Source: Gemmatimonadota bacterium
Lineage (GTDB): Bacteria > Gemmatimonadota > Gemmatimonadetes > Gemmatimonadales > GWC2-71-9
Reading direction: 5' to 3'
Assembly: GCA_036679645.1 (NCBI GenBank)
Contig: JAZDCY010000056.1
Span: forward strand, 75,911 to 139,910
Length of the DNA stretch: 64,000 bases
Under the pieces are notes generated by a model. The model worked only from the letters and a program-made list of their open reading frames with translations, did no database searches and was not told the DNA's origin. The translations under genes were made by a program, and so were the position numbers. Shown here in pieces: positions 24,994 to 55,221 of the stretch (position 1 is the stretch's first letter; each line of letters starts with the position of its first letter).

Positions 24994-25175
24994 CCCGTCA
25001 CTGACCTCGGCGGTTGGGTGTTGGTGTTTGGTGCGGATGCGTCGGCGGCTTCTTGGGCGACGGCCGCCGCACCCGCTGAGGGCGGGACTTCTTCACGGGC
25101 CCGGTCTTGGTCGACCCTGCCCTCTCCCCCCCACCCACCACTACGCGTCTAGGCGTCTTCGCGTCCCCCTGTCAA

Positions 25176-25263
25176 CTGAGCATCTGAGCACCTGAGCACC
25201 TGAGCACCTGAGCGTCTGAGCACCTGAGCGTCTGAGCAGCTGAGCGCCTGAGCACCTGAGCGT
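25176..25263. repeat. 8-bp tandem repeat, 11 copies (consensus CTGAGCAC)
   Basis: Read directly: ctgagcat, ctgagcac x3, ctgagcgt, ctgagcac, ctgagcgt, ctgagcag, ctgagcgc, ctgagcac, ctgagcgt. The array ends exactly at the ubiE-like stop codon (25264-66). Confidence 0.95.
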
Positions 25264-26007
25264 CTACACGGCACCCCAGTGCACCGCCACGATCCCCATC
25301 GTCAGCCGCTCGTACCCCACATCCTGAAACCCCGTATCCTCCATCAATCTCGCCAGATCGTCCGGCGCGGGAAAGCGCAACACGGACTGTGGCAGATACG
25401 TATAGGCTTCTCTATGTTTCGACACGATTCGTCCGATCAGCGGAAGCACGCGCCGGAAGTAGAAGAGGTAGACCGGACGGATCGGCCACGCGCTGGGCGT
25501 CGTGAACTCGAGAATGACGGCTCGCGCGCCTGGTTGCAACACCCGCCGCAGCTCTGTGAACCCCGACCGGAGGTCGACGAGATTCCGCACGCCGAATCCG
25601 ACGGTCACTCCGGCGAACGACGCATCCGGAAACGGGAGCTGCAGCGTGTCGGCACCAACCGGCTCCAAGCCCGGTACCTTGCCTCGACCCAGCTGCAGCA
25701 TAGGGACGACAAAGTCGGCGCCCACCACCCGACCGCTGAAGCCATCGCGTCGCGCCAGCTCGGCCGCGAGATCGAGTGTCCCCGCGCACGCGTCGAGATA
25801 GGTGCCGTCCGGCACACGCTCCCAGCCCAGCCGATCGACCGCGCGGCGGCGCCATCTCTTGTCGACGTTGAGGCTCAGGAGATGGTTGAGCAGGTCGTAC
25901 CGCGGAGCGATGGCGGTGAACATGTTCCGCACGTACGAACGCCTCTCGGCCGGCGGCAGCGGGGTCTCCACGGCAGGCGTCATGGGGCGGAAAGATACGA
26001 ACCGCAC
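25264..26007 (-). CDS. ubiE: demethylmenaquinone/ubiquinone C-methyltransferase
   Basis: MFTAIAPRYDLLNHLLSLNVDKRWRR plus the SAM-binding YLDACAGTLDL. The start may be the downstream Met (MTPAVE). Confidence 0.9.
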   Translation of the reverse strand: MRFVSFRPMTPAVETPLPPAERRSYVRNMFTAIAPRYDLLNHLLSLNVDKRWRRRAVDRLGWERVPDGTYLDACAGTLDLAAELARRDGFSGRVVGADFVVPMLQLGRGKVPGLEPVGADTLQLPFPDASFAGVTVGFGVRNLVDLRSGFTELRRVLQPGARAVILEFTTPSAWPIRPVYLFYFRRVLPLIGRIVSKHREAYTYLPQSVLRFPAPDDLARLMEDTGFQDVGYERLTMGIVAVHWGAV

Positions 26008-48635: not shown

Positions 48636-49754
48636 ATGGAGCGTCGCGATTTCTTTCGTGCCGGGTTGGCGGCTAGCTTCGCCAGCCTCGGCGGCCCCGC
48701 CTCGGCCCTCGCGCTCGACCCGGTCGCAGCGCGCCGCCTCGGCCCGCTGCGTCTGAATTTCAACGAGAACGCGCTCGGCCTCTCAATGGCCGCTCGACGG
48801 GCCGTGATCGACGGTATCATGGAGGGCAATCGGTACCCCCACTCGGCCACGACCCCTCTCCTCGCGGCGCTTGCGCTGAAACACGACGTCCCGCCAGAGA
48901 GCATCGTGTTCGGAAACGGGTCCACTGAGATCCTGCGAATCGCGGTGAGCGCCCTTGGCGGTGCGGACGCAACCATCGTCCTCGCCGATCCCACGTTCGA
49001 GGACGTCCCTGGCTACTCCACGCCCTTTGGGCCTCGTCTGGAACGCATTCCGCTCGCGGGCGACTTCGCCCACGACATTCCCGCGATGCGCACACGAGCG
49101 GAAGCGGCCGACGGACCGGTATTGGTGTACATATGCAATCCGAACAATCCAACAGCTACGCTGACCGACTGCGACTCCATCGACGAGTGGATAGCACACG
49201 CACAGGACAACGTATACTTCCTCATTGACGAGGCGTACTTCGAGTACGTTAACAGCAGTCACTATCGCACGTCGGTGAAGTGGGTGGCGGACAAGCGCAA
49301 CGTACTGGTCGTGCGCACCTTCTCGAAGATCTACGCGATGGCCGGTATGCGCGTGGGGTACGGCATGGCACACCCGGAGACGGCTGCGAAACTCCGGGCC
49401 TACGTGACGCGGAACACACCGAATCACCTTGCCGGTGCCGCCGCTCTGGCCTCACTACAAGACGAGCACATGGTCCCACGCAGCCTCGAGAACAACCGGC
49501 GCTGTATGGAAATCGTCTTGGGTACGTTCGACGAACTCGGTATCGAGTACATACCGAGCCAGGCGAACTTCATGATGCACCGCGTGAGCGGTGATCTCGC
49601 GACGTACATCGAGCGCATGCTGGAACACGGCGTTCGCGTGGGCCGTCAGTTCCCGCCGATGCTCGGCTACAACCGACTCTCGATGGGATTGCCGGAAGAG
49701 ATGGAAACGTTTGTGGACGTCTTGCGGACGTTCAGGGAGAGAGGATGGGCGTGA
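48636..49754 (+). CDS. class-II PLP aminotransferase (HisC-like) with a twin-arginine signal peptide
   Basis: MERRDFFRAGLAASFASLGGPASALA gives an RRxFF Tat motif and an AxA site. PLP lysine context: RTFSKIYAMAGMRVGY. Also NPNNPT. Confidence 0.8.
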   Translation: MERRDFFRAGLAASFASLGGPASALALDPVAARRLGPLRLNFNENALGLSMAARRAVIDGIMEGNRYPHSATTPLLAALALKHDVPPESIVFGNGSTEILRIAVSALGGADATIVLADPTFEDVPGYSTPFGPRLERIPLAGDFAHDIPAMRTRAEAADGPVLVYICNPNNPTATLTDCDSIDEWIAHAQDNVYFLIDEAYFEYVNSSHYRTSVKWVADKRNVLVVRTFSKIYAMAGMRVGYGMAHPETAAKLRAYVTRNTPNHLAGAAALASLQDEHMVPRSLENNRRCMEIVLGTFDELGIEYIPSQANFMMHRVSGDLATYIERMLEHGVRVGRQFPPMLGYNRLSMGLPEEMETFVDVLRTFRERGWA

Positions 49755-49755
49755 G

Positions 49756-49828
49756 GATTACAGATTACAGATTGGAGATTGGAGATTGGAATCGCCAATC
49801 TCTAATCGCCAATCGCTAATCTATAATC
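49756..49828. repeat. AT-rich heptad-repeat palindrome: 5 GATTNNA units facing 5 inverted units
   Basis: GATTACA x2 and GATTGGA x3 (49756-49790) face CCAATCT, CTAATCG, CCAATCG, CTAATCT, ATAATC. Hand pairing of 49756-89 with 49795-828 gives 29 Watson-Crick pairs plus 1 G-T in 34 positions, with the loop AATCG. Confidence 0.85.
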
Positions 49829-49831
49829 GAT

Positions 49832-52576
49832 ATGAGTGACATCACTGAGCGACTCACGGTCGCCATTGCCGACCGCTACAAGATCGAGTCCCACCTCGGC
49901 CAGGGTGGGATGGCGACCGTCTACCTGGCGCACGACGTCAAGCACGACCGCAAGGTCGCGCTCAAAGTATTGCGCCCCGAGTTGGCCGCCGTGATCGGCG
50001 CCGAGCGGTTCCTGCAGGAGATCAAGGTCACCGCCAACCTGCAGCACCCCAACATCCTGGCGCTCTACGATTCCGGCGAGGCGGACACGTTCCTCTACTA
50101 CGTCATGCCCTATATCGAGGGCGAGTCGTTACGCGACAAACTCGAGCGTGAGAAGCAGCTCGCCATCGAAGATGCCATCGAGATCACCCGTGGTGTCGCC
50201 GCAGCGTTGGACTACGCCCATCGGCAGGGCGTGATCCATCGGGACATCAAGCCAGAGAACATCCTGCTGCATGATGGCCGACCCGTGGTCGCGGATTTTG
50301 GCATAGCGTTGGCGGTGAGCGCGGCGGCGGGCGGCCGGATGACGGAAACGGGGCTCTCGCTCGGCACGCCGCATTACATGAGTCCCGAGCAGGCCACGGC
50401 GGAGAAGGACATCACGAACCGGTCGGATGTCTACTCGTTGGGGTGTGTGCTGTACGAGATGCTGGCAGGCGATCCGCCCTACACGGGAAGCACCGCGCAG
50501 GCGATCGTGGCGAAGGTGATCACGGAAAAGGCGGCGCCCGTGACCGCCATCCGCGATACGGTGCCGCCGCACGTCGCCGCCGTGGTGCAGAAAGCGCTCA
50601 GCAAGCTCCCAGCGGATCGTTTCTCGACCGCGGCGACGCTCGCCGAGGCGCTCGTACGTCCCTCTCTGCTGGATGCCGACCGCCTATCGGTGACCGTGAG
50701 CGCGGGCGAGCCGTCGCGGCAGCGAATGCCTCGCGCGGTCTGGCTGCTCGCAGCCGCGCTCGTCGTCATGACGGCCGTGACCGGATGGGCGTTGTTGCGA
50801 TCGCCTGAGTTACCGGTGGTGCGCCTCACGATTGGGATCCCGCAAGAACAGCAGCGCATTCTATATGGCGGCATCAACCTCACCCCCCCGCGGGTCGCAC
50901 TGACACCGGATGGATCGAGTCTCATCTACGTGGGCGTGGAAGAGAACTACACGGGTGTGGCCGTGTCCGGCTCCAGGACCCTGAGTGTGCGGTCGCAGCT
51001 CTGGTTCCGGCCGCTCGATGAATTGGAGGCGCGACCCATGCCGGGCACGCAAAACGGGTGGGCACCGGAGGTGTCACCGGACGGGGAGGAGTTCGTCTTC
51101 ACCGTGTTCGGCGAGGGCCAGGCGCAGGTCAAGATCGCGGCGTTCTCCGGCGGTCCTCCATTGACGGTGGCGGCATCCGGTGTCGGTTCGTCAGCGTCCT
51201 GGGGGACTGATGGCCACGTCTACTTCGTGGATGAGTCTGGAGTCGGCGTGCGGCGCGTGCCTCTCGGCGGAGGACCGGTCGAAGTCGTAACCACACTTGC
51301 TCCATTCCCCGATGGTGCCCGGCTCATGTGGCCCCACGTCCTCCCGGGGGCCCGAGGAGCCATCGCGACCGTCGGAACTCAGGCCCAATCTCGCCTGGCG
51401 AGTCACGAGCTTCATGCCATCGACTTCGCCTCCGGCACGTCGACTCCGCTCGTGGTTGGCGTGTACGGGATATACAGCCCTTCCGGGCACATTGTCTACG
51501 TAACGGCCGACGGGGTGTTGATGGCTGTGCCGTTTGACGTCGACGGGTTGCGCACGACAGGTCGGCCCACGGCGCTTGTGCAAGGAGTGGACTACCGCAA
51601 CAACGGGGCGAGTGACATCACAATCTCGAGCACGGGGACGCTGATCTACGCCACGGAAGGACTCAATGCTCCGGAGATCGCCGTCTGGGTCGATCGGACC
51701 GGGCGCGTCGAGCCCGTCGATCCTGGGTGGGCTGGTGAGCTCGAGTTCGAGGGCCTGGCGCTTTCCCCCGATGGATCCCGCTTGGCGGTCGAACTCGTCG
51801 CGGGCGGGCGCGGCGACATCTGGATCAAGCAACTCGACCGCGGGCCCCTATCGCGCCTCAGCTTCGAAGGCACGGACAATCGCACGCCGGCGTGGAGCCC
51901 CGATGGGCTGTCGGTATTGTACCTGTCTCTCGTCGAAGAGGGCGGGTGGGAGCTGCTCATGAGACGGTCCGACGGCAGTGGCGAGGCCGAGCGGCTGCCC
52001 TCACCCCAGGGCAGGGTTCGCGAGGCAGTGTGGACGCCCGACGGGACTTCCCTGGTTGCGGCCGTATCGGGCCCGACCGGCGACGATGTGCTTCTCCTCC
52101 GTCTCGACACAGAGAGCTCCTGGACCGCAATTCTCGACGGAGCCGACGACGAATACCAGCCAGCCGTCTCACCGGACGGCCGTTGGCTCGCCTACGTCTC
52201 GGAGGAATCAGGACAACCTGAGGTTTATGTCCGCCCCTTCCCCAACACGGCCGGTGGGAAGTGGCAGATTTCTACGAGTGGCGGACTCGAGCCGTTGTGG
52301 AGCGCGGACGGCCGCGAGCTCTACTACCGCACCTTCGGCGGTAGCACGGTCTGGGCCGCGTCGATGACCGGCGGGCCGGCGGGCGCGGTACGCCGCGAAT
52401 TGTTCAGCATCCCAGATGGGGTTTACGAAAACAATCCGCGGAACAAGCTCCACGCGCTCACGCCGGACGGCCGCCGCTTCATCATGATCAATCAGACGGG
52501 CGAGGGCGACCTTTCCGGAGATCTCGTGTTCGTACAGAATTTCTTTGCTGAGCTGAAGGAGAAGACCGCAAGGTGA
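49832..52576 (+). CDS. Ser/Thr protein kinase + TM + TolB-like (PD40/WD40-like) beta-propeller
   Basis: 914 aa. Kinase motifs: GQGGMATVYLAHD, VALKVL, HRDIKPENILL, DFGIA, GTPHYMSPE. TM segment: AVWLLAAALVVMTAVTGWALL. Repeated SPDG propeller motifs. Confidence 0.85.
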   Translation: MSDITERLTVAIADRYKIESHLGQGGMATVYLAHDVKHDRKVALKVLRPELAAVIGAERFLQEIKVTANLQHPNILALYDSGEADTFLYYVMPYIEGESLRDKLEREKQLAIEDAIEITRGVAAALDYAHRQGVIHRDIKPENILLHDGRPVVADFGIALAVSAAAGGRMTETGLSLGTPHYMSPEQATAEKDITNRSDVYSLGCVLYEMLAGDPPYTGSTAQAIVAKVITEKAAPVTAIRDTVPPHVAAVVQKALSKLPADRFSTAATLAEALVRPSLLDADRLSVTVSAGEPSRQRMPRAVWLLAAALVVMTAVTGWALLRSPELPVVRLTIGIPQEQQRILYGGINLTPPRVALTPDGSSLIYVGVEENYTGVAVSGSRTLSVRSQLWFRPLDELEARPMPGTQNGWAPEVSPDGEEFVFTVFGEGQAQVKIAAFSGGPPLTVAASGVGSSASWGTDGHVYFVDESGVGVRRVPLGGGPVEVVTTLAPFPDGARLMWPHVLPGARGAIATVGTQAQSRLASHELHAIDFASGTSTPLVVGVYGIYSPSGHIVYVTADGVLMAVPFDVDGLRTTGRPTALVQGVDYRNNGASDITISSTGTLIYATEGLNAPEIAVWVDRTGRVEPVDPGWAGELEFEGLALSPDGSRLAVELVAGGRGDIWIKQLDRGPLSRLSFEGTDNRTPAWSPDGLSVLYLSLVEEGGWELLMRRSDGSGEAERLPSPQGRVREAVWTPDGTSLVAAVSGPTGDDVLLLRLDTESSWTAILDGADDEYQPAVSPDGRWLAYVSEESGQPEVYVRPFPNTAGGKWQISTSGGLEPLWSADGRELYYRTFGGSTVWAASMTGGPAGAVRRELFSIPDGVYENNPRNKLHALTPDGRRFIMINQTGEGDLSGDLVFVQNFFAELKEKTAR

Positions 52577-55221
52577 GCGACATTACGGAGCGCCTTTCCA
52601 CCGCGATCGCCGATCGCTACAAGATCGAGTCCCACCTCGGCCAGGGTGGGATGGCGACCGTGTATCTGGCGCACGACGTCAAGCACGACCGCAAGGTCGC
52701 GCTCAAAGTATTGCGCCCCGAGTTGGCCGCCGTGATAGGCGCCGAGCGCTTCTTGCAGGAGATCAAGGTCACCGCCAACCTGCAGCATCCGCACATCCTG
52801 CCGCTGCACGACTCCGGCGAAGCCGACACGTTCCTCTATTACGTGATGCCCTACATCGAGGGCGAGTCGTTGCGCGACAAGCTCGACCGTGAGAAGCAAC
52901 TCGGCATCGAGGACGCCATCGACATCACCAAGAACGTGGCCGCAGCGTTGGACTACGCGCACCGTCAGGGTGTGATCCATCGTGACATTAAGCCCGAAAA
53001 CATCCTGCTGCATGACGGGCAGGCGCAGGTGGCGGACTTCGGGATCGCGCTGGCGGTAAGCGAGGCGAGCGGGAATCGTCTGACGGAGACGGGCCTCAGC
53101 ATCGGGACGCCGCACTACATGAGCCCCGAGCAGGCAATGGGCGACCGCGAGCTCGACTCGCGTAGCGACGTCTACTCGTTGGGCGCCATGCTGTACGAGA
53201 TGCTGACCGGCGATCCGCCGTACACCGGGAGCACCGCGCAGGCGATCGTGGCAAAGGTGATCACGGAGAAGGCGCCACCGGTGACGGCCATTCGGGATAC
53301 GGTCCCGAGCCACGTTGCGGCGGCAGTTGAGAAATCGCTCAGCAAGCTGCCGGCGGATCGGTTCACGACGGCGGCCGATTTCGCGGTCGCCCTGTCCCAA
53401 CAGGCCGTAGCACCTGTTGCGGCCGCAGGCACCGGGACTGCCGGCGTGACGGGCGACGCCCAAACGTGGACCCTCACGCTGCCGAAGATCGACGTGCGGC
53501 GCGCAGTTCCGTGGGTACTGGTAGCCGCCATGGCTGTAGCGACCTGGTGGTTTGCAAGCCGACCGGCACCAGTCCAGCGCATCGTACGCCTACACGTCGC
53601 GCTCCCGGAGGACGCCGCACTCGGCGACGCCCTCAACGGCCGCTCGATTGCGCTGTCACCGGACGGGTCGCAGATCGTGTACGTCGGCGACGGTGGCCAA
53701 CTCTACCTGCGGCGCCTCGACCAGCTAGAAGCACGTCCGCTGCCCGGAACCTCGAACGCGCACACCCCCTTCTTCTCACCGGACGGTGCGTGGGTGGGCT
53801 ACAGCCAACCGCCCGACCTGAAGAAGGTCGCACTGGCGTGGGGTCCCCCGCTCACAATCGGCGCGGCGCCCAACTTGCGCGGAGCGAGTTGGACGCCTGA
53901 AGGGACAATCGTGTTCGCGCCGACGAATGCCAGTGGGCTCCTGCGCGTGTCAGACGGAGGGGGAACACCCGATACGCTGACGCGAGCCGATTCCGCGGGC
54001 GGCTCGGACCGGTTGCCGCAGGTACTGCCTGGCGGGCGGGCAATACTTTTCACGCATTGGGTGAGTTCGGTAGACGATTCGTACACCGCCGTCCTCGATA
54101 CGAGGACTGGCGAAACCACACGACTCCTCGCGGGCGTTGACGCACGCTATGTCGCAACCGGTCACCTGGTGTACGCGACCGCGGACGGTTCTCTGCTGGC
54201 GGTGCCGTTCGATGTGAATCGGCTCGAGGTCACTGGTAACCCGGTCGCGCTTCTCGAAGGAGTAACGGTCAAGGCAAGTGCCGTTGCAGAAGTCGCGATC
54301 GCAGGTGATGGAACGCTGCTCTATGTCTCGGGCCTCGCGACCGAGCGGAACCTCATTGCCGCGGATCGCCGGGGCGTGCAGCGTATCTTGGTCGAGGAAC
54401 TCAACGCCGCCGGGAGCCCACGTGTTTCGCCGGACGGTCGCCACATCGCGTTGAGGCTCGTAGTCGACGGCAACACGGACATTTGGATCTTCGATGTGAG
54501 CCAAGGGACCCTTTCTCGTCTCACTTTCGAAGGAAACAACGACTACCCGGTGTGGTCGCTCGATGGCCGTTACGTGTATTTCGGTTCCGCCCGCCAAGAA
54601 CGCGATCGTGATATTTACCGACGTGCCGCCGACGGCAGCGGCGCGATCGAGGAGGTGCTGATCCGGGATGGGTCCCAGTGGGAGTTCCTCCCCGTGCGCG
54701 GAGACAGCCTCTTCGTGTTCCGGGAAGGGTCGCCGACTGGCGGTCGCGATATCTGGGTTGGCCGAACCGACGGGTCCGATTTCACACCATATGTGGCAAC
54801 CGAGTTCAACGAGCGCGCTCCCGCGATCTCACCGGACGGCCGATGGCTGGCGTACACCTCGAATGAATCCGGGGTCGACGAGATCTACGTCAGGGAGTTC
54901 CCCGAGCCCAGCGGTCGCTGGCAAGTGTCCACGGACGGCGGGGTCGACGCCGTATGGGCCGTGTCCGGTAGCGAGATTTATTATCGCGACGGTCAACGGC
55001 TCATCGCAGTTCCCATGTCGGCCAACCCAACGCCGACCTTCGGGCAACGTGAGACTCTCTTCGAATGGCGTGCCACCGGCAACAGCCAGCATGCCCAGTA
55101 CGACATCAACTCCGCGACCGACGAGTTCGTGGCGCTCGTTCCCAGGGGCGATTCGAACGCGGAGATGATCGTGGTGCTGAACTGGTTCGAGGAGCTTCGG
55201 GCACGAACCGGCAGCAACTGA
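52573..55221 (+). CDS. Ser/Thr protein kinase + TM + TolB-like beta-propeller (tandem paralog)
   Basis: 882 aa. GTG start in a GTGA overlap with the upstream stop. The N-terminal ~120 aa are nearly identical to the upstream kinase. Confidence 0.85.
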   Translation: MSDITERLSTAIADRYKIESHLGQGGMATVYLAHDVKHDRKVALKVLRPELAAVIGAERFLQEIKVTANLQHPHILPLHDSGEADTFLYYVMPYIEGESLRDKLDREKQLGIEDAIDITKNVAAALDYAHRQGVIHRDIKPENILLHDGQAQVADFGIALAVSEASGNRLTETGLSIGTPHYMSPEQAMGDRELDSRSDVYSLGAMLYEMLTGDPPYTGSTAQAIVAKVITEKAPPVTAIRDTVPSHVAAAVEKSLSKLPADRFTTAADFAVALSQQAVAPVAAAGTGTAGVTGDAQTWTLTLPKIDVRRAVPWVLVAAMAVATWWFASRPAPVQRIVRLHVALPEDAALGDALNGRSIALSPDGSQIVYVGDGGQLYLRRLDQLEARPLPGTSNAHTPFFSPDGAWVGYSQPPDLKKVALAWGPPLTIGAAPNLRGASWTPEGTIVFAPTNASGLLRVSDGGGTPDTLTRADSAGGSDRLPQVLPGGRAILFTHWVSSVDDSYTAVLDTRTGETTRLLAGVDARYVATGHLVYATADGSLLAVPFDVNRLEVTGNPVALLEGVTVKASAVAEVAIAGDGTLLYVSGLATERNLIAADRRGVQRILVEELNAAGSPRVSPDGRHIALRLVVDGNTDIWIFDVSQGTLSRLTFEGNNDYPVWSLDGRYVYFGSARQERDRDIYRRAADGSGAIEEVLIRDGSQWEFLPVRGDSLFVFREGSPTGGRDIWVGRTDGSDFTPYVATEFNERAPAISPDGRWLAYTSNESGVDEIYVREFPEPSGRWQVSTDGGVDAVWAVSGSEIYYRDGQRLIAVPMSANPTPTFGQRETLFEWRATGNSQHAQYDINSATDEFVALVPRGDSNAEMIVVLNWFEELRARTGSN

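What the first reader, a model, noticed from the sequence alone, without database searches (positions are those of the whole stretch)
49756..49828. 73-bp AT-rich palindrome built from heptad repeats (GATTACA, GATTGGA) ending 4 nt before a kinase start codon
Five direct 7-bp units (GATTACA x2, GATTGGA x3) face five inverted units across the loop AATCG. This gives 29 Watson-Crick pairs and one G-T pair in 34 positions. The element fills the whole gap between the aminotransferase stop (49754) and the kinase ATG (49832), and it contrasts sharply with the GC-rich surroundings.

Its right arm contains TATAAT (49822-27) only 4 nt from the ATG. The element could therefore act as a terminator, as a start-site-occluding hairpin, or as a promoter giving a leaderless mRNA. 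The 7-bp periodicity also resembles iterated protein-binding sites. I cannot match it to a known element.
Basis: seen in the sequence. Interest (0 to 1): 0.6.

Follow-up and report, generated by a model that had tools for sequence, protein, structure and literature searches.

The report
Heptad-repeat hairpin between two genes
The 73-bp palindrome is real: it is an inverted pair of 7-bp simple-repeat arrays, a kind already described in Xanthomonas and Nostoc with no known function, and here it probably folds into an RNA hairpin that hides the start codon of the kinase gene downstream.

Summary
Arms 49756-49789 and 49795-49828 form 29 Watson-Crick pairs plus 1 G-T in 34 positions, with loop AATCG. 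GATT is invariant in all 11 units. The RNA folds at -41 to -42 kcal/mol (z -6.4 to -8.5), and the element is unique in the 64 kb.

It lies one base after the stop codon of a class I/II aminotransferase and 3 bases before the ATG of a Ser/Thr kinase, in a Gemmatimonadota genome. The kind is already known: heptameric simple-sequence repeats in convergent inverted pairs, G-rich strand after stop codons, C-rich strand before start codons (Rehm 2015). This unit is AT-rich and cannot form a G-quadruplex.

Relatives with 87% and 70% identical aminotransferases carry a hairpin at the same junction, built from different units. A fourth genome keeps only the right-arm array ahead of a related kinase. 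More distant relatives lack the element.

My best mechanism, which is inferred, is an intercistronic RNA hairpin. It places stop and start codons at the stem base and makes kinase translation depend on upstream ribosomes or RNase III.

A terminator with a T tail and a leaderless promoter are not supported. A neutral slippage product and a protein-binding array remain live rivals. Verdict: new member of a known kind, moderate interest.

The parts
48636..49754 (+). Upstream gene: class I/II aminotransferase (sources name relatives histidinol-phosphate aminotransferase). Its stop codon TGA is at 49752-49754.
   Evidence: ORF list. Pfam PF00155, E = 2e-34. Source names of homologues.
49750..49753 (+). 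CGUG, overlapping the stop codon. In the predicted RNA it pairs with UAUG (49831-49834), which includes the kinase AUG, extending the stem base.
   Evidence: Minimum-free-energy structures.
49756..49789 (+). Left (5') arm: five GATTNNN units (GATTACA x2, GATTGGA x2, GATTGG). It is G-rich, with 11 G against 2 C.
49790..49794 (+). Loop AATCG. Its AATC is in phase with the right-arm array, as a sixth AATC unit.
49795..49828 (+). Right (3') arm: five NNNAATC units (CCAATC, TCTAATC, GCCAATC, GCTAATC, TATAATC). It is G-poor and forms the immediate 5' leader of the kinase. It aligns in the same 7-nt register with the arrays of L203 and L205; the alignment to L202 is looser.
49822..49827 (+). TATAAT hexamer inside the last right-arm unit. 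Probably incidental: it is simply an AATC unit with TAT in front.
   Evidence: Sequence. No promoter match. Not conserved in relatives.
49832..52576 (+). Downstream gene: Ser/Thr protein kinase with PD40 beta-propeller repeats. No Shine-Dalgarno motif precedes its ATG.
   Evidence: Pfam PF00069, E = 7e-55, and PF07676. Upstream sequence.
52573..55221 (+). Second, paralogous kinase. Its start overlaps the first kinase's stop by 4 nt, so the genes form an operon-like block.

Best explanation
What it is (high confidence): a convergent, inverted pair of heptanucleotide simple-sequence-repeat arrays. (GATTNNN)5 is followed by (NNNAATC)5-6, inherited at the aminotransferase-kinase junction of one small Gemmatimonadota clade. 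The unit sequence and copy number turn over by slippage and by exchange between the arms.

How it most likely works (inferred):
1. The three co-directional genes are transcribed together, so the element is made as RNA and snaps into a 34-bp stem.
2. The stem puts the aminotransferase UGA at its 5' base and the kinase AUG at its 3' base. The AUG and the SD-less AAUC leader are sequestered.
3. The kinase is then translated only when the stem base is opened. This happens either by a ribosome terminating at the UGA, which unwinds the first 10-15 nt of the left arm and frees the AUG held next to it (translational coupling across the hairpin), or by RNase III cleavage of the long duplex.
4. The same stem can protect the 3' end of the upstream message.
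5. Changes in repeat number would retune kinase output.
For: Shown:
- Exact palindrome and a strong fold, with the AUG paired to the stop-codon region.
- No SD before the kinase ATG, while the aminotransferase and the second kinase have one.
- Hairpins at the same junction in L203 (aminotransferase 87% identical) and L202 (70%), built from different units but still folding at -34 to -45 kcal/mol.
- The sense strand folds 2.5-4.6 kcal/mol better than the antisense in all three loci.
- A distant relative (L180) has the aminotransferase followed after 12 nt by a kinase of the same family. The likely ancestral junction was therefore tight, a spacing typical of translationally coupled genes.
- Across 120 loci from many phyla, inverted heptad pairs sit mostly between co-directional genes. 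They often fill the gap to within 5 nt of both stop and start (L010, L023 twice, L070).
- G-rich arrays follow stop codons and C-rich arrays precede start codons. The same polarity was published for Xanthomonas and Nostoc (PMC4692102).

Precedent: in Haemophilus influenzae a transcribed heptameric repeat forms a long 5'-UTR hairpin. RNase III cleaves it, this controls expression, and the hairpin is needed for repeat-number change (PMC12721329).
Against: - No transcript data exist. Co-transcription, folding in vivo, coupling and RNase III cleavage are all inferred.
- L205 keeps the right-arm array (36 of 36 bases identical to L203 apart from one 7-nt indel) without a left arm and without a long hairpin. 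The right arm may therefore act on its own, in a sequence-specific way.
- The invariance of GATT with variable N3 is what a protein-binding array would also show.
- Rapid unit turnover and absence from more distant relatives fit a neutral repeat equally well.
- Abutment to the stop and start codons could simply follow from expansion inside an originally ~12-nt spacer.
- The sense/antisense energy difference is small, with n = 3.
Confidence: 0.4

Rival explanations
1. A non-adaptive by-product. Heptad-specific replication slippage, plus template switching between the arms, created and keeps reshaping a repeat inside a once-short spacer. It is tolerated and has only incidental effects on expression.
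For: - Unit sequence and copy number differ among the three hairpin loci.
- The element is absent from all relatives with 61% or lower aminotransferase identity, including L180 with the same gene pair.
- Heptamers are the commonest long simple repeats in many bacteria, and a polymerase-slippage origin has been proposed (Mrazek 2007, as cited in PMC4679880 and PMC4692102).
- No function was found for the Xanthomonas and Nostoc repeats (PMC4692102).
- The L202 kinase looks damaged (ATA in place of ATG, plus a frameshift) although the hairpin persists.
Against: - The element persists at one junction across divergence down to 70% amino-acid identity, in a lineage that is otherwise heptad-poor: about 4 period-7 arrays in 262 kb, 3 of them at this junction.
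- The AATC phase is kept in four genomes.
- The L203 and L205 arrays match at 36 of 36 bases, while third codon positions match at 25 of 41 and the spacer at 10 of 17.
- The strong polarity of such pairs (53 against 8) needs either selection or a directional mechanism.
Confidence: 0.28
2. A DNA-level array of binding sites. A regulator recognising GATT/AATC at 7-bp spacing (3 units = 2 helical turns) binds both arms head-to-head and controls the kinase promoter region. The palindrome reflects the symmetry of the binding sites, not RNA folding.
For: - GATT is invariant in 11 of 11 units, and every mismatch lies in N3.
- The (C/T)AATC core is conserved in phase in the window, L203, L205 and L202.
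- L205 keeps the right array alone, identical to L203.
- The element is an AT-rich island (38% GC) in a 65% GC genome.
Against: - The left arm of L203 has GAAT and GAGT in place of GATT, so the core is not strict.
- No second site occurs in 64 kb of the window or in 7.8 kb of L205, and no candidate regulator is encoded next to it.
- In heptad-rich genomes, units of many unrelated sequences show the same architecture and polarity. That argues against one sequence-specific protein.
- A 7-bp spacing places successive sites on different faces of the helix.
Confidence: 0.15
3. A transcript 3'-end element. The stem-loop ends or protects the aminotransferase mRNA, either as a terminator without a U-tract or as an exonuclease barrier after Rho termination, so the kinases are expressed at a lower level or separately.
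For: - A very stable stem starts 1 nt after the stop codon.
- G-rich arrays lie close behind stop codons, both in my sample (14 against 4) and in PMC4692102, where transcripts more often start or stop at such repeats.
- Stem-loops mark primary 3' ends of both Rho-independent and Rho-dependent terminators in many clades (PMC13613805).
- Intergenic stem-loops set operon stoichiometry in Clostridium (PMC4423207).
Against: - No T-run follows the stem, and the terminator scan finds nothing at the element.
- The stem is AT-rich, unlike intrinsic terminators.
- The kinase would then need a promoter in the 3 nt that remain, and none is detected.
- L205 has the right array without a hairpin.
Confidence: 0.12
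4. A promoter in the right arm (TATAAT at 49822-49827) that produces a leaderless kinase mRNA.
For: - A perfect TATAAT lies 4 nt before the ATG.
- The kinase lacks an SD motif.
Against: - No -35 or extended -10 element, and no hit in the promoter scan.
- The spacing is about 2-3 nt too short for transcription to start at the A of ATG (established knowledge of start-site selection).
- The hexamer is not conserved: L203 and L205 have TGCAAT(T/C), 19-20 nt from the ATG.
Confidence: 0.05

Closest known systems
Convergent ('tandemly inverted') heptameric SSR pairs of Xanthomonas (GGGAATC) and Nostoc (GGGGA(C/T)T), Rehm et al. 2015, PMC4692102
   Same: - 7-nt units that contain AATC/GATT.
- Two arrays on opposite strands in convergent orientation, able to form a stem-loop.
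- Intergenic, mostly between co-directional genes.
- The G-rich strand is the sense strand just after stop codons and the antisense strand just before start codons.
- Position is conserved between relatives while length and sequence vary.
- Function is unknown.
   Different: - The unit here is AT-rich with no G3 tracts, so no G-quadruplex is possible.
- It occurs once in 64 kb in a heptad-poor lineage, rather than about 180 copies per genome.
- The arms are directly adjacent (5-nt loop) and fill the whole gap between the stop and start codons.
hmw1A 5'-UTR (ATCTTTC)n hairpin of Haemophilus influenzae, Rapun-Araiz et al. 2025, PMC12721329
   Same: A heptameric SSR immediately upstream of a gene, transcribed, forming a long imperfect hairpin. 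This is the only case with a demonstrated mechanism: RNase III cleavage controls expression, and the hairpin is required for repeat-number change.
   Different: - There the right arm is a non-repeat G-rich stretch, not an inverted array.
- The element lies in a monocistronic 5' UTR behind its own promoter.
- It drives phase variation of an adhesin.
- None of these properties has been tested here.
TAACTGA heptamer repeats of marine Beggiatoaceae, MacGregor 2015, PMC4679880
   Same: Heptad arrays ending a few nucleotides before start codons in place of an SD, as with the AATC array here. My sample of 162 arrays shows a matching peak 2-5 nt before starts.
   Different: Those are direct repeats only (one inverted case in 170), consist of one fixed unit, and number hundreds of copies per genome.
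REP/BIME intercistronic palindromes of enterobacteria (own knowledge)
   Same: Works alike in outline: a transcribed intergenic hairpin inside an operon that can stabilise the upstream message and uncouple expression of the downstream gene.
   Different: REPs are dispersed multi-copy families with a conserved sequence and an associated RAYT transposase. This element is single-copy and made of tandem heptads.

Membership tests
Long simple sequence repeat (heptanucleotide SSR; Mrazek 2007 as cited in PMC4679880) | Head-to-tail tandem copies of a 5-11-nt unit, more than chance would give | tested here: met
   TRF reports period-7 arrays at 49756-49790 and 49790-49832. Eleven in-phase GATT units. 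The pattern gives 7 matches against 0.08 expected.
Long simple sequence repeat (heptanucleotide SSR) | Copy number and unit variation between relatives (slippage behaviour) | tested here: met
   L203, L202 and L205 have different unit numbers. L203 and L205 differ by exactly one 7-nt unit.
Convergent inverted heptamer-repeat pair (Rehm 2015, PMC4692102) | Two arrays of the same unit on opposite strands, convergent and close together | tested here: met
   Arms 49756-49789 and 49795-49828, 5 nt apart.
Convergent inverted heptamer-repeat pair (Rehm 2015, PMC4692102) | Polarity: the G-rich strand is the sense strand after a stop codon, and the C-rich strand is the sense strand before a start codon | tested here: met
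   The left arm has 11 G against 2 C and starts 1 nt after TGA. The right arm ends 3 nt before ATG. The same polarity holds in 53 of 61 pairs from other genomes that had unequal G and C counts (2 more pairs were tied).
Convergent inverted heptamer-repeat pair (Rehm 2015, PMC4692102) | G-quadruplex-forming unit (four or more G3 tracts) | tested here: not met
   The units are GATTACA and GATTGGA, and the longest G run is 2. This is the feature the authors emphasised, but their own non-G4 control repeats behaved alike.
Convergent inverted heptamer-repeat pair (Rehm 2015, PMC4692102) | Many copies per genome | tested here: not met
   One copy in 64 kb. Related Gemmatimonadota loci are heptad-poor. 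The whole genome was not available.
Intrinsic (Rho-independent) terminator | GC-rich stem followed by a T/U run | tested here: not met
   The stem is AT-rich and no T-run follows it. The scan found nothing at the element.
Sigma-70 promoter for a leaderless mRNA | -35 and -10 hexamers at 16-18 bp spacing, with the start codon at the transcription start | tested here: not met
   Only a -10-like TATAAT is present. No promoter match. It lies 4 nt from the ATG and is not conserved.
REP / MITE-type dispersed palindromes | A multi-copy dispersed family with a conserved sequence (plus terminal inverted repeats and target-site duplications for MITEs) | tested here: not met
   No second copy in the window or in L205. 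No flanking direct repeat is visible.
RNase III-processed SSR hairpin (hmw type, PMC12721329) | A transcribed heptamer SSR forming a long imperfect duplex next to the start of a gene | tested here: inconclusive
   The predicted duplex has 30 pairs over 34 positions with small internal loops. Transcription was not tested.
RNase III-processed SSR hairpin (hmw type, PMC12721329) | Cleavage by RNase III and dependence of expression on it | not testable with these tools
   Needs end mapping or an rnc mutant.
Any Rfam RNA family | A covariance-model match at or near the gathering score | tested here: not met
   The best hits are chance miRNA-hairpin matches at 16-22 bits against gathering scores of 61-83 bits.

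The most novel reading that the evidence does not exclude
Inverted heptad-repeat pairs may be a widespread, unrecognised device for gene junctions. The hairpin would hold a stop codon and the next start codon together at its base, so that an expandable repeat can sit between translationally coupled genes, with repeat number tuning the coupling. Alternatively, the strict polarity (G-rich arm always 5') could reflect a dedicated directional mechanism or factor shared by Acidobacteriota, Planctomycetota, Bacteroidota, Cyanobacteria, Gemmatimonadota and other phyla.
Probability: 0.12. Interest if true: 0.7.

Novelty: new member of a known kind. Interest (0 to 1): 0.35.

Why it matters
Heptamer repeats are the commonest long simple repeats in many bacteria, yet only one (hmw in Haemophilus) has a demonstrated mechanism.

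This locus is a clean natural test case. It is single-copy and sits exactly between a stop and a start codon. Three natural variants of the hairpin exist, plus one variant that lacks the left arm.

The locus shows that the architecture and polarity reported for G-quadruplex-type repeats also hold for an AT-rich unit that cannot form a quadruplex. That points away from quadruplexes and towards hairpin or leader function.

If the coupling or RNase III model holds, it would explain how these repeats are tolerated, or used, inside operons.

Tried and rejected
- Rfam scan of 49000-50500 at E <= 10: only chance miRNA-like hairpin hits.
- Promoter and terminator consensus scan: nothing at the element.
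- Search for further copies in the window (GATTGGAGATTGG with up to 3 mismatches; AATC-N3 x3): none outside the element.
- G-quadruplex reading: rejected, because no G run is longer than 2.
- RNA thermometer: rejected, because a stem of about -41 kcal/mol would not melt at physiological temperatures (inference).
- GATT-specific family: my genome-wide scan used GATT-N3 x5, so it could only find GATT arrays. The flanks of those loci hold 143 heptad arrays with unrelated units, so GATT itself is not special across bacteria.
- Orthologous junctions from 80 metagenome loci: the best were only 50-57% identical and none carried the element. The downstream 'kinase' in L124 proved to be a different 432-aa kinase, so most of these are not the same gene pair.
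- Kinase-based search for closer relatives: the nearest full-length kinases are 60-63% identical and lie in tandem kinase arrays. Only L205 has the heptad leader, and DNA for P0122 was not retrievable.
- Strand asymmetry through G-U pairs: one G-U and one C-A on each strand of the window element, so uninformative. The whole-fold comparison favours the sense strand only slightly.
- Shine-Dalgarno census of the window: uses crude longest-ORF starts, so I cite it only for the three genes at this locus.

Full report
**1. Observation**

Arms 49756-49789 and 49795-49828 are 34 nt long with a 5-nt loop, AATCG. They form 29 Watson-Crick pairs, one G-T pair and four mismatches.

Read as heptads, the left arm is GATTACA, GATTACA, GATTGGA, GATTGGA, GATTGG. 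The reverse complement of 49790-49828 is GATTATA, GATTAGC, GATTGGC, GATTAGA, GATTGGC, GATT. G-A-T-T is invariant in all 11 units, and every non-Watson-Crick position falls in the three variable bases.

The element has 38% GC against 65% for the window. As RNA it folds at -41.9 kcal/mol (z -6.4) or -41.3 kcal/mol (z -8.5), depending on the flanks included. No shuffle out of 200 folds as well.

It is the strongest short-loop inverted repeat in the window. It is also the only place with phased AATC or GATT, with 7 overlapping matches against 0.08 expected.

An independent Logan assembly reproduces the left arm and breaks inside it. Contigs from relatives span homologous hairpins. It is therefore not an assembly artefact.

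**2. Context**

The upstream ORF (48636-49754) is a class I/II aminotransferase. The downstream ORF (49832-52576) is a Ser/Thr kinase with PD40 repeats. A second kinase follows, and its start overlaps the first kinase's stop. Names attached to homologues place the genome in Gemmatimonadota.

The element starts 1 nt after TGA and ends 3 nt before ATG. The kinase has no Shine-Dalgarno motif, whereas the aminotransferase has GGAG 7 nt upstream of its start and the second kinase has an AGGAG.

In the predicted RNA, the CGUG that overlaps the stop codon pairs with UAUG, which includes the kinase AUG. Stop and start codons therefore sit opposite each other at the stem base.

**3. Relatives**

| Locus | Relation to the window | Junction |
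|---|---|---|
| L203 | aminotransferase 87% identical | Same junction: GATTGCA GAATGCA GAGTGCA GAATGCA GAATTCA GATTTGC / GACA / GATC TGCAATC ACTAATC TGCAATC TGGAATC TGCAATT, then 19 nt, then the ATG of the orthologous kinase (MSDITERL...). Folds at -39 to -45 kcal/mol. |
| L202 | aminotransferase 70% identical | GATTAGC GATTGGC GATTAGC GATT, a ~40-nt spacer, then TAATCAC TAATCTC AATC. Folds at -34 to -43 kcal/mol. Its kinase looks damaged (ATA for ATG, plus a frameshift). |
| L205 (GCA_022563595.1) | kinase 62% identical; the upstream gene is another kinase | Right array only: GATC TGCAATC ACTAATC TGCAATC TGCAATT. No long hairpin (z -1.15). |
| L204 | aminotransferase 61% identical | A different downstream gene; no element. 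|
| L180 | aminotransferase 55% identical | After 12 nt, a kinase of the same family (49% identical from residue 1); no repeat. |
| L206-L209 | kinases 55-61% identical | No heptad leader. |

The window, L203 and L205 right arms align in the same 7-nt register, and a (C/T)AATC core keeps its phase; L202 aligns only loosely. The two bases in front of the core differ between genomes. In the three hairpin loci the left arm changes to match.

The L205 array is identical to the L203 array at 36 of 36 aligned bases, apart from one 7-nt unit. By contrast the spacer matches at 10 of 17, the first 120 aligned coding bases at 98, and third codon positions at 25 of 41.

Across 262 kb of Gemmatimonadota sequence, period-7 arrays are rare, and three of the roughly four lie at this junction.

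The element is therefore a locus-specific, vertically persistent feature of one small clade. The hairpin is kept while its sequence turns over.

**4. The wider kind**

They come from Acidobacteriota, Planctomycetota, Bacteroidota, Cyanobacteria, Verrucomicrobiota, Chloroflexota, Patescibacteria, Gemmatimonadaceae and others. Many hits have an inverted partner array.

The scan could only find GATT arrays. In the flanks of those loci, period 7 is by far the commonest tandem period (255 merged arrays; the next most common is period 14 with 98). A further 143 arrays have unrelated units. GATT is thus one unit among many in heptad-rich genomes.

Three regularities emerged.
- **Polarity of inverted pairs.** All 20 exact GATT pairs read GATT-array then AATC-array. 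Among all period-7 pairs, the 5' arm is G-rich in 53 and C-rich in 8.
- **Orientation relative to genes.** Arrays read as NNNAATC end within 6 nt of a long-ORF start in 27 of 162 cases, against 4 of 162 in the other orientation, with a peak at 2-5 nt. Arrays read as GATTNNN begin within 6 nt of a long-ORF stop in 14 cases against 4.
- **Position of pairs.** Pairs lie mostly between co-directional genes and often fill the gap to within 5 nt on both sides, as in L010, L023 (twice) and L070. ORF calls here are crude.

**5. Literature**

This kind has already been described.
- Rehm et al. 2015 (PMC4692102) studied GGGAATC repeats in Xanthomonas and GGGGA(C/T)T repeats in Nostoc. They report 70-75 convergent inverted pairs per Xanthomonas genome. 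[quoted passage not shown] Positions were conserved while length and sequence varied between species. No function was identified.
- MacGregor 2015 (PMC4679880) describes TAACTGA repeats ending a few nucleotides before start codons in place of an SD.
- Both papers cite Mrazek 2007 for heptamers being the commonest long simple repeats, and for the slippage hypothesis.
- The only mechanistic case is the hmw 5' UTR of Haemophilus influenzae. There a transcribed (ATCTTTC)n forms a long hairpin that RNase III cleaves. The hairpin controls expression and is needed for repeat-number change (PMC12721329).
- Stem-loops also mark transcript 3' ends for both Rho-independent and Rho-dependent termination in many clades (PMC13613805).

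**6. Mechanism**

Shown: the structure, its position, its conservation pattern, and the lack of an SD, a -35 element or a T tail.

Inferred: the genes are co-transcribed, and the RNA forms the stem. The stem sequesters the AUG and the AAUC leader. A ribosome stopping at UGA unwinds the first 10-15 nt of the left arm (ribosome footprint, established knowledge) and so frees the AUG that the rest of the stem holds nearby. Alternatively, RNase III opens the duplex.

This model explains three things:
- why an insertion of about 65 nt into a formerly tight junction (12 nt in L180) is tolerated when it is palindromic;
- why the arms co-vary;
- why the sense strand folds slightly better than the antisense.

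L205 weakens the model, because the right array survives there unchanged without a partner. Either that array has its own sequence-specific role as a leader or a binding site, or gene conversion between paralogous kinase loci keeps it identical. I could not distinguish these two possibilities.

I give the RNA-hairpin model 0.40. The rivals score: neutral repeat 0.28; DNA binding-site array 0.15; 3'-end element 0.12; leaderless promoter 0.05.

**7. Verdict**

The element is a new member of a known but functionally unexplained kind. It is notable for its AT-rich unit that cannot form a quadruplex, for its single-locus persistence, and for its exact stop-to-start bracketing. Interest is moderate.

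Noticed in passing
window 25176-25265: A tandem array of about 11 octamers (CTGAGCAC / CTGAGCGT, period 8/16), with direct repeats only. It lies in the 270-nt gap between two minus-strand genes and abuts the stop codon of the gene at 25264-26007. A shorter CTACGCGT x3 array sits just before it, at 25141-25165.
   Followed up: partly
L122 290-393 and 1535-1640: A Gemmatimonadota relative (aminotransferase 56% identical) has a 16-nt-period array (CTGCCGTCTTGCTGTT x6.5) ending about 17 nt before the aminotransferase start. It also has an octamer-based hairpin (GACGGGAT... / ...ATCCCGGT) starting right after the stop codon. The architecture is the same as in the finding, but the period is 8.
   Followed up: partly
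L002-L121 (120 loci from many phyla): In genomes that carry GATT heptad arrays, period 7 dominates all tandem repeats, and units of many unrelated sequences occur. Inverted pairs almost always have the G-rich arm 5' (53 against 8). This generalises the polarity published for G-quadruplex-type repeats to units that cannot form a quadruplex.
   Followed up: partly
L203 1113-1157 versus L205 2446-2483: The right-arm arrays of two genomes are identical at 36 of 36 bases (one 7-nt indel). Adjacent spacer and third codon positions are only about 60% identical. This is either purifying selection or gene conversion between paralogous kinase loci; unresolved.
   Followed up: partly
L083 2946-3243: A higher-order repeat. 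GATTGCA/GATTGTT heptad arrays alternate with a copied ~35-nt unit (GTCCGGATCCCGACCGAGCAGGCACAGATAAATTGCA), giving a period of about 65-70 nt. It ends in an inverted TGCAATC array.
   Followed up: no
L049 3522-3655 (Fibrella aquatilis): A near-perfect palindrome of about 46-nt arms. Heptads (GATTGCG, GATTGGG, GATTTCG) continue into a unique stem segment, and the locus holds the structure between two minus-strand genes.
   Followed up: no
L035, L078, L119, L120: Long GGGATTA / GGGATTC arrays, some at contig ends. They resemble telomere-type TTAGGG-plus-one repeats and probably break assemblies.
   Followed up: no
window 49832-55221; L205, L206, L207: Kinase-PD40 genes occur as tandem paralogues: two in the window, and three or more in a row in relatives. 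Junctions range from overlapping to 160 nt.
   Followed up: no
L202 5214-5360: The kinase orthologue behind the L202 hairpin has ATA where the others have ATG, and an apparent frameshift about 120 nt into the gene. It is either a pseudogene or a low-coverage assembly error.
   Followed up: no
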